Of a stretch of 64,000 nt of DNA, positions 5,237 to 45,017 are shown in pieces. The notes under the pieces were generated by a model. It saw only the letters and a list, made by a program, of their open reading frames with translations, did no database searches and was not told the origin of the DNA. Every line of letters begins with the position of its first letter. The stretch's first letter is position 1. The stretch lies in NCBI RefSeq assembly GCF_988242995.1, contig NZ_OZ547043.1, one strand, 5' to 3'. The position numbers and the translations under genes are program-made.

Positions 5237-8200
5237 ATGTCACGTTATAAAACAGGTCATAAACAACCACGATTTCGTTATTCAGTTCTGGCCCGCTGCG
5301 TGGCGTGGGCAAATATCTCTGTTCAGGTTCTTTTCCCACTCGCTGTCACCTTTACCCCAGTAATGGCGGCACGCGCGCAGCATGCGGTTCAGCCACGGTT
5401 GAGCATGGAAAATACTACGGTAGCTGCTGATAATAATGTGGAAAAAAATGTCGCGTCGTTTGCCGCAAATGCCGGGACATTTTTAAGCAGTCAGCCAGAT
5501 AGCGATGCGACACGTAACTTTATTACCGGAATGGCCACAGCTAAAGCTAACCAGGAAATACAGGAGTGGCTCGGGAAATATGGTACTGCGCGCGTCAAAC
5601 TGAATGTCGATAAAGATTTCTCGCTGAAGGATTCTTCGATGGAAATGCTTTATCCGATTTATGATACGCCGACAAATATGTTGTTCACTCAGGGGGCAAT
5701 ACATCGTACCGACGAGCGTACTCAGTCAAATATTGGTTTTGGCTGGCGTCATTTTTCAGAAAATGACTGGATGGCGGGGGTGAATACTTTTATCGATCAT
5801 GATTTATCCCGTAGTCATACCCGCATTGGTGTTGGTGCGGAATACTGGCGTGATTATTTGAAACTGAGCGCCAATGGTTATATCCGGGCTTCTGGCTGGA
5901 AAAAATCGCCGGATGTTGAGGATTATCAGGAACGCCCGGCGAATGGCTGGGATATTCGTGCTGAGGGCTATTTACCCGCCTGGCCGCAGCTTGGCGCAAG
6001 CCTGATGTATGAACAGTATTATGGCGATGAAGTCGGGCTGTTTGGTAAAGATAAACGCCAGAAAGATCCACATGCGATTACCGCTGAAGTGAATTACACG
6101 CCAGTGCCTCTTCTGACCCTGAGTGCTGGGCATAAGCAGGGCAAGAGTGGTGAGAATGACACTCGCTTTGGCCTGGAAGTTAATTATCGGATTGGCGAAC
6201 CTCTGGAAAAACAACTCGATACAGACAGCATTCGCGAGCGTCGAATGCTGGCAGGCAGCCGCTATGACCTGGTTGAGCGTAATAACAATATCGTTCTTGA
6301 GTATCGCAAATCTGAAGTGATCCGTATTGCTCTGCCTGAGCGTATTGAAGGCAAGGGCGGCCAGACGGTTTCCCTGGGGCTTGTGGTCAGCAAAGCAACT
6401 CACGGTCTGAAAAATGTGCAATGGGAAGCGCCGTCTTTGCTGGCCGCAGGCGGAAAAATTACGGGGCAGGGCAATCAGTGGCAAGTGACGCTCCCGGCTT
6501 ATCAGGCAGGCAAAGACAATTATTATGCGGTTTCAGCGATTGCCTACGATAACAAAGGCAATGCCTCGAAACGTGTGCAGACAGAAGTGGTTATTAGCGG
6601 AGCTGGTATGAGCGCCGATCGTACGGCGTTAACGCTTGACGGTCAGAGCCGTATTCAAATGCTTGCTAACGGTAATGAGCAAAAGCCGCTGGTGCTGTCT
6701 CTGCGCGACGCCGAGGGTCAGCCAGTCACGGGCATGAAAGATCAGATCAAGACTGAACTAACTTTCAAACCGGCTGGAAATATTGTGACTCGTTCTCTGA
6801 AGGCCACTAAATCACAGGCAAAGCCAACACTGGGTGAGTTCACCGAAACTGAAGCAGGGGTGTATCAGTCTGTCTTTACTACCGGAACGCAGTCAGGTGA
6901 GGCAACGATTACTGTTAGCGTTGATGACATGAGCAAAACTGTCACTGCAGAACTGCGGGCCACGATGATGGATGTGGCAAACTCCACCCTGAGCGCTAAC
7001 GAGCCGTCAGGTGATGTGGTTGCTGATGGTCAGCAAGCCTACACGCTGACACTGACAGCGGTGGACTCCGAGGGTAATCCGGTGACGGGAGAAGCCAGCC
7101 GCCTGCGACTTGTTCCGCAAGACACTAATGGTGTAACCGTTGGTGCCATTTCGGAAATAAAACCAGGGGTTTACAGCGCCACGGTTTCTTCGACCCGTGC
7201 CGGAAACGTTGTTGTGCGTGCCTTCAGCGAGCAGTATCAGCTGGGCACATTACAACAAACGCTGAAGTTTGTTGCAGGGCCGCTTGATGCAGCACATTCG
7301 TCCATCACCCTGAATCCTGATAAACCGGTGGTTGGCGGTACAGTTACGGCAATCTGGACGGCAAAAGATGCCTATGACAACCCTGTGACCAGCCTCACGC
7401 CGGAAGCGCCGTCATTAGCGGGGGCTGCGGCTGTAGGTTCTACAGCATCTGGCTGGACAAATAATGGTGATGGGACGTGGACTGCGCAGATTACTCTCGG
7501 CTCTACGGCGGGTGAATTAGAAGTTATGCCGAAGCTAAATGGACAGGATGCGGCAGCAAACGCGGCAAAAGTAACCGTGGTGGCTGATGCGTTATCTTCA
7601 AACCAGTCGAAAGTCTCTGTCGTAAAAGATCACGTAAAAGCCGGCGAAAGCACAACCGTGACGCTGGTGGCGAAAGATGCGCATGGCAACGCTATCAGTG
7701 GTCTTTCGTTGTCGGCAAGTTTGACGGGGACCGCCTCTGAAGGGGCGACTATTTCCAGTTGGACCGAAAAAGGTGACGGTTCCTATGTTGCTACGTTGAC
7801 TACAGGCGGAAAGACGGGCGAGCTTCGCGTCATGCCTCTCTTCAATGGCCAGCCAGCAGCCACCGAAGCCGCGCAGTTGACGGTCATCGCTGGAGAGATG
7901 TCATCAGCTAACTCTACGCTTGTTGCGGACAATAAGGCTCCGGTCGTCAAAACGACGACGGAACTCACCTTCACCGTGAAGGATGCGTACGGGAACCCGG
8001 TCACCGGGCTGAAGCCAGATGCACCAGTGTTTAGCGGTGCCGCCAGCACGGGGAGTGAGCGTCCTTCAGCAGGAAACTGGACAGAGAAAGGTAATGGGGT
8101 CTACGTGTCGACCTTAACGCTGGGATCTGCCGCGGGTCAGTTGTCTGTGATGCCACGCGTGAACGGCCTAAATGCCGTTGCTCAGCCACTGGTGCTGAAT

Positions 8201-42855: not shown

Positions 42856-43671
42856 ATGATATCATTAAAAGCTCCGCACAATAATTTGATGCCATATACG
42901 CAACAAAGCATACTTAATACAGTAAAAAACAATCAGTTACCAGAGGATATCAAAAGCTCCCTGGTTTCCTGTGTCGATATATTCAAGGTTTTGATTAAAC
43001 AATATTATGATTATCCTTATGATTGTCGTGATGATTTAGTCGATGACGACAAACTCATTCATCTCATGGCTGCCGTACGAGACTGTGAGTGGTCAGACGA
43101 TAACGCACTCACCATAAATGTGCAGTTTAATGATTTCCCAGGATTTTATGACTGGATGGATTACCCTGATCACCCGGTTAAGTTTGTTTTTCGCATACTT
43201 GAAAATCAAAAAGGGACAGTTTGGGTATATGACCAGGATGATGCGTTTCTTGATATTAAAGCAAATGTGCAGGCTGGACGCTTTACCGGGCTTAAGAAAT
43301 TAGTGCAGTTTATCGATTCAGTGCGAACAGATTGCAAATGTATTCTTCTTGAACACCATATGCCTTTGCTGAGACTTTTCCCTAAAGGGAAAGAGTGTAT
43401 GCATGTGGAAAAATGGCTTCGCGAAATGTCGTCTATTCCGGAGACCGACGCACCCATTAAGCAGGCGCTTGCGCATGGATTATTATTACACTTAAAAAAT
43501 ATCTACCCTGTTTTTCCTGAATCACTGGTGATGTTATTGCTCTCTGTTCTGGACGTAAAAACATACAGAGATGATGCGCGATTAAATCAATGGATATCTA
43601 ATAGAGTGCAGGAATTAGGTGACAGATATTATCCTGTAAATAAGCACGTTAAAATCCGCTACACTCTTTAG
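42856..43671 (+). CDS. yahL: uncharacterised protein
   Basis: 271-aa ORF; no recognisable domain; name from recalled K-12 synteny. Confidence 0.65.
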   Translation: MISLKAPHNNLMPYTQQSILNTVKNNQLPEDIKSSLVSCVDIFKVLIKQYYDYPYDCRDDLVDDDKLIHLMAAVRDCEWSDDNALTINVQFNDFPGFYDWMDYPDHPVKFVFRILENQKGTVWVYDQDDAFLDIKANVQAGRFTGLKKLVQFIDSVRTDCKCILLEHHMPLLRLFPKGKECMHVEKWLREMSSIPETDAPIKQALAHGLLLHLKNIYPVFPESLVMLLLSVLDVKTYRDDARLNQWISNRVQELGDRYYPVNKHVKIRYTL

Positions 43672-43897
43672 TTCAGAAAGGGTTCCACCTGCGAGTTGTT
43701 ATTCCACCAGAGAGTGAATCGCAAAGCAGGTGATCATTTCATCTGTATATCCGTATGCCAAATGGCATTCCACCGCCTTTTTCGCCGATATTTTGTTGTG
43801 ATCGGCGACACTTCGCTTAAAAAAGCATCAGCAGTGGTTTCGCAGCTATACGGTGTATAAAAAATGATCTCATGCAGATGTTTTGTGAATGTGTGGG

Positions 43898-43926
43898 TTG
43901 ACATTCATATGAAAAAAATCATAATT
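43898..43926 (+). promoter_or_regulatory. sigma70-like promoter (TTGACA, 16-17 nt spacer, CATAAT) upstream of yahM
   Basis: ttgaca 43898-43903, cataat 43920-43925. Confidence 0.25.
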
Positions 43927-44083
43927 CCATCATGTTTGTGTGGGGTCTTTTCTGTATCTTACGCATCGCACTCAAGCCTGACAGAAAATATGCTGTAAGG
44001 CTCATATCAAAAACCGCCATTAGCTCATCAGGAAGAGCAGACGACAACCAGGATTGTTGTATGGTACGGGGTTCGAGGCCTCG

Positions 44084-44329
44084 ATGGCGGTCCAACTTTT
44101 CATAACTCTTCTGAATCAGATCCCCTTATTATCATCCCTGCAAAGTGGAACATTGCCATTGTTTGGCTATTCAGGACGGGTCAGAGCAATGAAAAAAGCC
44201 CACACAGGGGAGAGTGGGCTGAAATGGGAAGCTAAAGACTCAAGTAAACTTATCGGAAATAAGGACCACGCATTACGGGGGCTATCATCGCCGATGGTCG
44301 GGATTCGGCAAATCAGGTTGATTACGTAG
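44084..44329 (+). CDS. yahM: small uncharacterised protein
   Basis: ORF 44054..44329; start set to MAVQLF; weak evidence (ORF plus synteny). Confidence 0.4.
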   Translation: MAVQLFITLLNQIPLLSSLQSGTLPLFGYSGRVRAMKKAHTGESGLKWEAKDSSKLIGNKDHALRGLSSPMVGIRQIRLIT

Positions 44330-44345
44330 AGAGTAAATTATCTGC

Positions 44346-45017
44346 TCACCGCTGTGTCACCCCTTCGTAAATCAGGCGTAGCGCGAATACACCAATAATT
44401 GCACCAATAACCCGACTGGCAACGCGTTGCATACGCCCATAAGCACGACGCACAGCGGGCAAAGAAAACGCCTGACTAAGAAAAACGCGCCAGATAATTG
44501 ATGCGAGCACAATCCCCGCTCAGGCCATTAAACGTGCCCATGTTGGTGTTTCGGCATTTAATGTTACTGAGAAAATACTGATAAAAAATAAAACGGTTTG
44601 CGGGTTAGAGAGATCGGTAATTAATCCACGGCGAAAAAAGACATACCAGGGGGCGTTAATCGGTTGTTGTAGTGTGCTCATTTGCGGTGTTGACTGGCGG
44701 CGCATGCTGCACCACGCAAACCATAAGAGATAAGCGCCGCCGACGATTCTGATAAGCGAAAAAATCTCCTCACACTGCGTAATTAGCGTTGCAAGACCAA
44801 ACAAACCCAACCCGGAATAAAATGCATCGCCCAGCGCCACGCCCAGCCCGGTCAGCACCCCTGCGCGTCGACCGGAAGCCAGGCTGGTTTGTACTACCAC
44901 AAAGAGATTGGCTCCCGGATTAAAAAAAGTAATCACGAACAGTCCTACGGTCAGATAAACGGCGTGCAAAGGATCCATAGTGATTTCATCCATAAATAAG
45001 TGAAGTAACTTCATCAT
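44346..45017 (-). pseudogene. yahN: LysE/RhtB-family amino-acid exporter interrupted by an in-frame TGA
   Basis: ORF 44520..45017 ends ...TWARLMA-TGA; same frame continues 57 codons (AGIVLASIYLARFLSQAFSLPAVRRAYGRMQRVASRVIGAIIGVFALRLIYEGVTQR) to TGA at 44346-44348. Confidence 0.65.

What the first reader, a model, noticed from the sequence alone, without database searches (positions are those of the whole stretch)
43672..44083. Near-consensus promoter and ~400 bp non-coding region between yahL and yahM
TTGACA-N16-CATAAT at 43898-43925 lies in a 380-bp gap with no convincing ORF, while the downstream yahM ORF is itself weak. The transcript from this promoter could be a small RNA or leader rather than only a yahM mRNA.
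Basis: seen in the sequence. Interest (0 to 1): 0.25.

Follow-up and report, generated by a model that had tools for sequence, protein, structure and literature searches.

The report
Known leaderless xtpA gene with tRNA-like element
The "non-coding gap" between yahL and yahM in this E. coli window holds the already described xtpA gene: a strong promoter that starts transcription on the ATG of a small-protein mRNA whose 3' half is a tRNA-like sequence derived from a phage.

Summary
The promoter is real. TTGACA-N16-CATAAT at 43898-43925 is the only match of 11/12 or better in the 64-kb window. Its -35 hexamer is identical in every Escherichia sequence compared.

The gap is not ORF-free. An ATG at 43932, 7 nt after the -10, opens a 57-codon ORF. 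[quoted passage not shown] From the -35 to the CCA end the window is 100% identical to K-12. One A>T change at 44103 makes a TAA stop and removes 3 residues.

Bases 44014-44094 fold as a cloverleaf ending in CCA. They are homologous to the phage tRNA-Arg gene argN, and closest to the decayed argN copy of phage phiP27. The yahM start codon lies inside the acceptor stem. yahM itself is frameshifted in the two yahL-lacking E. coli strains examined and absent from other species.

One result may go beyond the annotation. Across Escherichia species the tRNA-like part is invariant (0/81 variable columns, against 27/82 in the 5' ORF part). Codon 4 of the ORF is TAG in E. albertii and two cryptic-clade genomes. 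The RNA element may therefore be the conserved unit.

Verdict: already known, low interest.

The parts
43898..43925 (+). Sigma-70 promoter: -35 TTGACA (43898-43903), 16-nt spacer, -10 CATAAT (43920-43925)
   Evidence: It is the only match of 11/12 or better in 64 kb. The -35 is identical in all Escherichia sequences compared. Only 3 of 28 columns vary, and only in E. albertii.
43932..43932 (+). Inferred transcription start, the A of the xtpA ATG (C at -1, A at +1, 7 nt after the -10). No Shine-Dalgarno sequence lies between the -10 and the ATG.
   Evidence: Inferred from sequence geometry. 'Leaderless mRNA' comes from the title of Muto et al. 2022. Not measured here.
43932..44105 (+). xtpA ORF, 57-aa allele. 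K-12 has 60 aa; the T at 44103 creates a TAA stop.
   Evidence: A 61-mer carrying this allele is exact in 470 of 4783 E. coli records.
43933..44002 (+). Two predicted 5' hairpins inside the ORF (about 43933-43970 and 43975-44002)
   Evidence: Covariation is not significant, so they remain only predicted.
44003..44096 (+). Stretch homologous to phage DNA: the ileZ-argN spacer remnant plus an argN-derived sequence
   Evidence: Identity is 75-85% to lambdoid and Stx phage argN or pseudo-argN.
44014..44094 (+). tRNA-like element. It has a 7-bp acceptor stem (CCGCCAT / ATGGCGG), a D arm, an anticodon-like arm, a T arm (CGGGG-TTCGAGG-CCTCG), discriminator T and an encoded CCA. It covers codons 28-54 of xtpA.
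   Evidence: ARAGORN calls it tRNA-Ser(gga). The MFE fold is a cloverleaf. No column varies among 5 Escherichia species lineages, 0/81. It is identical in 4821 of 5170 E. coli records.
44084..44329 (+). yahM ORF (81 aa). Its ATG lies in the 3' strand of the acceptor stem and its GAGG in the T loop. It is probably not a conserved protein gene.
   Evidence: It is frameshifted in the yahL-lacking strains L010 and L011. Homology is lost about 10 nt after the CCA in other species. No Pfam or NCBIfam match.
44192..44220 (-). Intrinsic terminator of the convergent gene yahN: hairpin at 44197-44220, U-tract at 44192-44196 on the minus strand. It lies inside the yahM ORF.
   Evidence: -13.9 kcal/mol, z = -3.1. 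The simple scan missed it because its loop is 10 nt. It is conserved in E. albertii.

Best explanation
This locus is the xtpA gene of E. coli.

A near-consensus sigma-70 promoter (43898-43925) should start transcription at the A of the ATG at 43932. The RNA therefore has no 5' UTR and no Shine-Dalgarno sequence, which makes it a leaderless mRNA. By established knowledge of leaderless mRNAs, ribosomes load on the 5'-terminal AUG.

The mRNA encodes the small basic protein XtpA, 57 aa in this strain and 60 aa in K-12. The 3' half of the ORF (44014-44094) is a degenerate tRNA-Arg gene of phage origin (argN type). It still folds as a cloverleaf with an encoded CCA end.

According to the title of the 2022 paper, XtpA regulates expression of the GcvB small RNA. 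From my memory of its abstract, loss of xtpA increases sensitivity to aminoglycosides.

Shown here: the promoter, the ORF orthology, the tRNA-like fold and its phage ancestry, and the conservation pattern.
Inferred from geometry and literature: the exact start site, translation of the ORF, and the GcvB link.
For: The promoter is unique in the window and conserved.

K-12 RefSeq annotates xtpA (b4845, 'putative transcriptional regulator XtpA') at the homologous coordinates. The window is 100% identical to K-12 from the -35 through the CCA.

RegulonDB v12 (PMC10767902) lists XtpA as a newly added small protein. It cites Muto et al. [quoted passage not shown]

A massively parallel reporter study reports a confirmed TSS and IHF repression at 'yahMp' (10.1101/2025.05.13.653802). 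This is probably the same promoter, but no coordinates are given.

ARAGORN and MFE folding support the tRNA-like element, and the alignment to 933W argN and the phiP27 copy supports its phage origin.

The ORF is intact in all 8 E. coli sequences compared.
Against: I could not read the primary paper, which is not held. The TSS, the translation and the GcvB link rest on its title, on database curation and on my memory of the abstract.

The protein has no relatives outside Escherichia and no family match.

Outside E. coli the ORF carries TAG at codon 4 in E. albertii and two cryptic-clade genomes. pN/pS over codons 1-27 is 0.56-1.12, so the peptide is not visibly under purifying selection across species.

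The predicted MFE structure pairs the 5' AUG region. That is not ideal for leaderless initiation.

This strain's allele lacks the last 3 residues.
Confidence: 0.85

Rival explanations
1. The selected unit is the RNA rather than the peptide, or the RNA in addition to it. The promoter makes a transcript whose conserved function resides in the tRNA-like element. That element could be a substrate or decoy for tRNA-processing or tRNA-binding factors, or a stabilising or processing module. The XtpA reading frame would then be a recent, E. coli-specific addition, opened by a TAG-to-TGG change at codon 4.
For: Among 5 species-level lineages whose yahN is only 83-87% identical to the window, the tRNA-like part has 0/81 variable columns. 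The adjoining 5' ORF part has 27/82, and the stretch after the CCA has 30/36 (Fisher p = 1e-9).

Codon 4 is TAG in E. albertii (2 strains), in MOD1-EC5350 and in L018, and AAG in E1V33. An ancestral TAG needs 2 changes and an ancestral TGG needs 3.

pN/pS in codons 1-27 is about 0.6-1.1.

Phage copies of the same pseudo-argN decay freely. They show acceptor-stem mismatches and destroyed T loops, with 20 variants among 119 copies. The chromosomal copy is identical in 93% of E. coli records.
Against: The published work (title only) attributes the regulatory effect to the peptide.

There is no covariation to prove structure, because the element never varies. The 5' hairpins show no significant covariation.

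The Rfam tRNA model does not recognise the element, and the shuffle z-score of the fold is only -1.9.

Only 5 non-coli genomes were examined. The parsimony margin is a single step.
Confidence: 0.3
2. The promoter mainly serves yahM. On this reading 43932-44083 is a 152-nt 5' leader of a yahM mRNA, the default the first reader wanted to move away from.
For: yahM follows on the same strand, with GAGG 5 nt before its ATG. No + strand terminator was found between the two. The reporter study names the promoter yahMp. Convergent transcriptional overlap between yahM and yahN is reported (PMC12288877).
Against: yahM is frameshifted by two 1-nt deletions in the yahL-lacking E. coli strains L010 and L011. 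It is annotated differently in O157:H7. It is absent in E. albertii and the cryptic clades, where homology ends about 10 nt after the CCA. It has no family match.

Its ATG and GAGG are sequestered in the acceptor and T stems. Its ORF is antisense to the yahN terminator.
Confidence: 0.1
3. The promoter is a chance match in AT-rich horizontally acquired DNA and has no function.
For: The region is 43% G+C. Matches of 9/12 or better are not enriched in the surrounding 3 kb: 5 found against 7.5 expected. A match of 11/12 or better is expected 0.81 times per 64 kb.
Against: The expectation within the 412-bp gap is 0.0105. The -35 is identical and the -10 nearly so across species whose flanks are unalignable. 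Literature reports transcription from here.
Confidence: 0.02

Closest known systems
xtpA (b4845) of E. coli K-12 MG1655; Muto et al. 2022, J Biochem 171:459 (PMID 35081614)
   Same: The position is the same, between yahL and yahM/yahN. The promoter, ATG and frame are the same. The sequence is 100% identical from the -35 to the CCA of the tRNA-like element.
   Different: This strain has A>T at 44103, giving TAA and a 57-aa instead of a 60-aa product. About 10% of complete E. coli genomes carry the exact 61-mer with this allele.
argN (tRNA-Arg UCG) of Stx/lambdoid phages such as 933W, and the unannotated decayed argN between ileZ and argO of phage phiP27 / mEp460
   Same: The acceptor stem, discriminator and CCA are identical, the T arm is nearly identical and the 5' side of the D arm is the same. 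The element shares the GGAAGAGCAGACGACA insertion with the phiP27 type. Identity is 75-85%.
   Different: The anticodon arm has been rebuilt, and the Rfam tRNA model does not recognise the element. It is chromosomal, lies inside an ORF and has its own promoter. The neighbouring ileZ, argO and phage pT promoter are absent. Phage copies decay, whereas this one is invariant.
Leaderless mRNAs such as lambda cI from PRM (established knowledge)
   Same: The predicted transcription start coincides with the A of the AUG, and there is no Shine-Dalgarno sequence.
   Different: The start site was not measured here, and the predicted fold pairs the 5' end.
tmRNA (SsrA) and other RNAs that combine a tRNA-like domain with a coding segment; dual-function RNAs such as SgrS/SgrT (established knowledge)
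   Same: One transcript carries both a tRNA-like fold and an ORF.
   Different: Here the tRNA-like fold lies inside the ORF rather than flanking it. There is no Rfam tmRNA or sRNA match, and no evidence of aminoacylation or trans-translation.

Membership tests
xtpA locus (E. coli K-12 b4845) | Orthologous position and sequence: between yahL and yahM, upstream of convergent yahN | tested here: met
   Gene order is yahK-yahL-[xtpA]-yahM-yahN-yahO-prpR. The window is 100% identical to K-12 from 43898 to 44102.
xtpA locus (E. coli K-12 b4845) | ORF from the same ATG in the same frame, encoding XtpA (60 aa) | tested here: met
   The ATG and frame are the same and 57 of 57 residues are identical. 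A TAA at 44103-44105 removes the last 3 residues, KLF.
xtpA locus (E. coli K-12 b4845) | tRNA-like sequence inside the mRNA | tested here: met
   ARAGORN hit at 44014-44094 and cloverleaf MFE fold.
xtpA locus (E. coli K-12 b4845) | Peptide regulates GcvB expression | not testable with these tools
   Known only from the title of Muto et al. 2022 in a reference list. The paper is not held.
Leaderless mRNA | Primary 5' end at, or within a few nt of, the A of the start codon, with no Shine-Dalgarno sequence | not testable with these tools
   The geometry fits: the -10 ends at 43925 and the ATG is at 43932, with TCCATC between them. The 5' end was not measured here.
Sigma-70 promoter | -35 and -10 hexamers with 16-18 nt spacing, conserved in relatives | tested here: met
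   The match is 11/12 with a 16-nt spacer and is unique in the window. 25-28 of 28 positions are conserved across Escherichia species.
tRNA (Rfam RF00005) | Scores with the tRNA covariance model | tested here: not met
   No tRNA hit even at E <= 10, on the 3-kb and the 206-nt searches.
tRNA (Rfam RF00005) | Cloverleaf with 7-bp acceptor stem, T loop TTCRANN, GG in the D loop, and a 3' CCA | tested here: met
   together with the sequence itself.
tRNA (Rfam RF00005) | Canonical single-nt junction between D and anticodon arms, and U33 in a 7-nt anticodon loop | tested here: not met
   Extra nucleotides (AGACG) follow the D stem. ARAGORN's loop CAGGAUU has A at position 33, and the MFE fold gives a 6-nt loop. 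The element is therefore unlikely to decode.
Trans-acting small RNA of a described family | Match to an Rfam sRNA family, and an intrinsic terminator defining a short transcript | tested here: not met
   Only chance-level Rfam hits. No + strand terminator was found.

The most novel reading that the evidence does not exclude
The ancestral and still-selected product may be a domesticated phage pseudo-tRNA expressed from its own strong promoter. This tRNA-like RNA is invariant across Escherichia species. On this reading the XtpA reading frame arose later, in the E. coli lineage, when a TAG at codon 4 became TGG. An independent TAG-to-AAG change would have done the same in one cryptic-clade genome. 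xtpA would then be a dual-function RNA and a case of recent gene birth on top of a tRNA-like non-coding transcript.
Probability: 0.3. Interest if true: 0.55.

Novelty: already known. Interest (0 to 1): 0.2.

Why it matters
As submitted, the finding re-discovers an annotated and published gene, so it adds little by itself. It does show that the yahL-yahM "gap" should be annotated as xtpA in this strain, where PGAP usually omits it. It also shows that yahM is a doubtful gene.

Two observations could matter for people studying xtpA, GcvB control or small-protein evolution. First, about one in ten complete E. coli genomes, including this one, carry a 57-aa allele. Second, the tRNA-like half is frozen across Escherichia species while the reading frame is broken at codon 4 outside E. 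coli. This raises the question of whether the RNA, the peptide or both carry the function. A start-codon mutant and cross-species complementation would answer that directly.

Tried and rejected
1. The promoter plus the 82-nt 5' part as a decayed phage pT promoter plus ileZ. The spacing is similar, 82 against 88 nt. Global alignment to 933W, phiP27 and mEp460 scored no better than shuffles. Rejected. Phage homology starts only about 11 nt before the tRNA-like element.

2. The tRNA-like element as an integration site (attB) for islands. The one truncated copy examined (strain DETEC-S792) is interrupted by IS1, not by an integrase-bearing element. No support.

3. An IHF consensus site (WATCARNNNNTTR) near the promoter, to match the reported IHF repression. 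There is no exact match within 43672-44083. Not followed with mismatches.

4. Rfam families. Only chance-level hits.

5. Covariation support for the two predicted 5' hairpins. 95.6% of cells are paired, but the shuffled controls reach the same values. Inconclusive.

6. Protein families and homologues of XtpA and YahM. No Pfam or NCBIfam match, and XtpA relatives occur only in Escherichia.

7. Literature look-ups by K-12 coordinate and for 'yahM' with 'leaderless' found nothing relevant. The primary xtpA paper is not in the library. The supplements of the reporter study do not mention yahM.

Full report
**Where we are.** The window is E. coli chromosome with the gene order yahK-yahL-yahM-yahN-yahO-prpR. 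It is 100% identical over the tested stretch to strain 118UI and many others, and the stretch is present in 5172 of 5426 complete E. coli genomes.

**The observation.**
- TTGACA (43898-43903), a 16-nt spacer and CATAAT (43920-43925) are present as described.
- At the loose 9/12 threshold, promoter-like sites are not enriched locally: 5 found against 7.5 expected.
- This site is nevertheless the only match of 11/12 or better on either strand of the whole 64 kb. Dinucleotide shuffles give 0.81 such sites per 64 kb and 0.0105 per 412-bp region.
- The statement that the gap has no convincing ORF is wrong. An ATG at 43932, 7 nt after the last base of the -10, opens a 57-codon ORF (43932..44105). 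C is at -1, A at +1, and only TCCATC lies between the -10 and the ATG.

**What it is.**
- The current K-12 MG1655 RefSeq record annotates xtpA (b4845, 'putative transcriptional regulator XtpA', 60 aa) at the homologous coordinates, overlapping the start of yahM.
- Window and K-12 are identical at every base from the -35 through the end of the tRNA-like element. The 230 bp upstream differ at about 7% of positions.
- RegulonDB v12 (PMC10767902) lists XtpA as a newly added small protein. [quoted passage not shown]
- That paper is not in the library. Its details are therefore not verified here. From my own memory of the abstract, an xtpA deletion is more sensitive to aminoglycosides.
- A massively parallel reporter study reports a confirmed TSS and IHF repression at 'yahMp' (10.1101/2025.05.13.653802). 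This is probably the same promoter, but no coordinates are given, and the supplements do not mention yahM.
- In this window one A>T change at 44103 turns AAA into TAA, so the product is 57 rather than 60 aa. A 61-mer carrying this allele is exact in 470 of 4783 E. coli records.

**The tRNA-like element.**
- ARAGORN calls 44014-44094 a tRNA-Ser(gga).
- The minimum-energy fold is a cloverleaf, both alone and within the 179-nt transcript. The shuffle z-score is modest, -1.9 to -2.2.
- It has a 7-bp acceptor stem, U8, GG in the D loop, a T arm (CGGGG-TTCGAGG-CCTCG), discriminator U and an encoded CCA.
- It also has extra nucleotides after the D stem and no U33. The Rfam tRNA model does not detect it even at E <= 10. 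It is therefore tRNA-like and not a decoding tRNA.
- BLAST against phages finds 284 records. The element is homologous to argN, the tRNA-Arg(UCG) gene of Stx and lambdoid phages such as 933W.
- It is closest (85%) to an unannotated decayed argN between ileZ and argO of phage phiP27. The two share the GGAAGAGCAGACGACA insertion.
- Homology covers 44003-44096 only. The promoter and the first 71 nt of the ORF show no similarity to the phage pT promoter or ileZ.

**yahM.**
- Its ATG (44084) lies in the 3' strand of the acceptor stem and its GAGG in the T loop.
- yahM carries two 1-nt deletions in two E. coli strains that also lack yahL.
- It is annotated differently in O157:H7.
- It has no counterpart in E. 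albertii or the cryptic clades, where homology ends about 10 nt after the CCA.
- It has no family match.
- Its ORF is antisense to a good minus-strand terminator for convergent yahN: hairpin 44197-44220 plus a U-tract, -13.9 kcal/mol, z = -3.1.

**Conservation.**
- A genome-wide scan for an xtp-specific 24-mer found it only in Escherichia. XtpA protein relatives also occur only in Escherichia.
- I compared the window with E. albertii (two strains), Escherichia sp. MOD1-EC5350, a cryptic-clade genome labelled E. coli SCPM-O-B-8794, and Escherichia sp. E1V33. Their yahN is 83-87% identical to the window's.
- Homology starts about 25 nt upstream of the -35 and stops about 10 nt after the CCA. The flanks are otherwise unalignable or hold different genes.

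| Segment | Variable columns between species |
|---|---|
| Promoter, 43898-43925 | 3 of 28 |
| 5' ORF part, 43932-44013 | 27 of 82 |
| tRNA-like element, 44014-44094 | 0 of 81 |
| After the CCA, 44095-44130 | 30 of 36 |

- The contrast between the 5' ORF part and the tRNA-like element gives Fisher p = 1e-9.
- Within E. coli, the tRNA-like 81-mer is identical in 4821 of 5170 records. The preceding 81 nt are identical in only 2963 of 5168.
- Phage copies of the same pseudo-argN decay freely. They have unpaired acceptor-stem changes and T loops replaced by variable G-runs. There are 20 variants among 119 copies, none identical to the chromosomal form.

**The ORF across species.**
- The ATG is identical in every sequence compared.
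- Codon 4 is TGG in E. coli; TAG in both E. albertii strains, in MOD1-EC5350 and in SCPM-O-B-8794; and AAG in E1V33.
- No alternative in-frame start follows the TAG before codon 44.
- pN/pS for codons 1-27 is 0.56-1.12. The numbers are small.
- XtpA is therefore not visibly conserved as a protein beyond E. coli, while the RNA element is. An ancestral TAG needs two changes on the tree and an ancestral TGG needs three, a weak preference.
- The predicted 5' hairpins tolerate most substitutions, but they have no significant covariation.

**Mechanism.**
- Most likely: sigma-70 RNA polymerase starts at 43932, and the transcript is translated from its 5'-terminal AUG into XtpA. According to the 2022 paper's title, XtpA regulates GcvB expression.
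- The intact acceptor/T minihelix with a CCA end is the kind of structure recognised by RNase P and the 3' trimming enzymes (established knowledge).
- I infer, but have not shown, that translation and tRNA-type processing of this RNA compete. Cleavage at 44013/44014 would cut the ORF at codon 27/28.
- The transcript has no + strand intrinsic terminator and would run into the yahN 3' region. This agrees with the reported convergent overlap between yahM and yahN (PMC12288877).

**Verdict.**
- The promoter observation is confirmed. The 'no ORF' part is not.
The feature itself is already known and annotated in K-12.
- Interest as a finding is low.
- The residual novelty lies in the cross-species pattern, an invariant domesticated phage pseudo-tRNA beside an interrupted ORF. 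That pattern leaves room for an RNA-level or dual function.

Noticed in passing
window 44346-45017 (- strand), stop at 44520-44522: yahN (LysE-family exporter) is a pseudogene in this strain. A TGA replaces the TGG seen in other strains and splits the ORF into pieces of 165 and 54 aa. RefSeq marks it 'internal stop' in the identical strain 118UI.
   Followed up: partly
window 42856-43684; loci L010, L011: yahL shows presence/absence polymorphism. Two E. coli strains go from yahK directly to sequence homologous to the window from about 43685 onward, and the same strains have a frameshifted yahM. E. albertii lacks both yahK and yahL here (yahJ is adjacent). MOD1-EC5350 has an SNF2-family helicase upstream instead.
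   Followed up: partly
window 44192-44220 (- strand): A yahN intrinsic terminator (7-bp stem, 10-nt loop, U-tract) lies about 125 nt downstream of the yahN stop, inside the yahM ORF. The simple terminator scan missed it. It also accounts for the weak Rfam 'Betaproteobacteria toxic sRNA' hit at 44190-44240.
   Followed up: yes
L020 (NZ_CP116067.1, strain DETEC-S792), locus 6001-6815: An IS1 element is inserted inside the tRNA-like element after its 62nd base. This disrupts xtpA in that strain and gives a natural knockout.
   Followed up: partly
L004 2501-2582 (phage phiP27), L006 2502-2588 (mEp460), and many IMG/VR prophage contigs L021-L140: Lambdoid phages carry an unannotated, decaying argN pseudo-tRNA between ileZ and argO. 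The T loop is often replaced by a G-run of variable length. PGAP labels one plasmid-borne copy 'tRNA-OTHER'.
   Followed up: partly
window 43755-43768: An inverted repeat, ATGCCA-AA-TGGCAT, lies about 165-175 nt upstream of the xtpA start. It overlaps a weak minus-strand promoter-like site (43761-43733). The arms are also present in K-12. It could be a regulator site or a hairpin.
   Followed up: no
10 places on plasmids: A few E. coli plasmids hold matches to this region. At least one is only the phage-type pseudo-argN next to tRNA-Ile on a 90-kb plasmid, probably a phage-plasmid. The others were not examined.
   Followed up: no
L017 (MAG 'Proteobacteria bacterium' OH_SBlB_131, JAFAEO010000042.1): A metagenome-assembled genome labelled only 'Proteobacteria' carries an E. 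coli-type xtpA-yahM locus with a 1-nt deletion in the ORF. This is probably an Escherichia contig or an assembly error.
   Followed up: no
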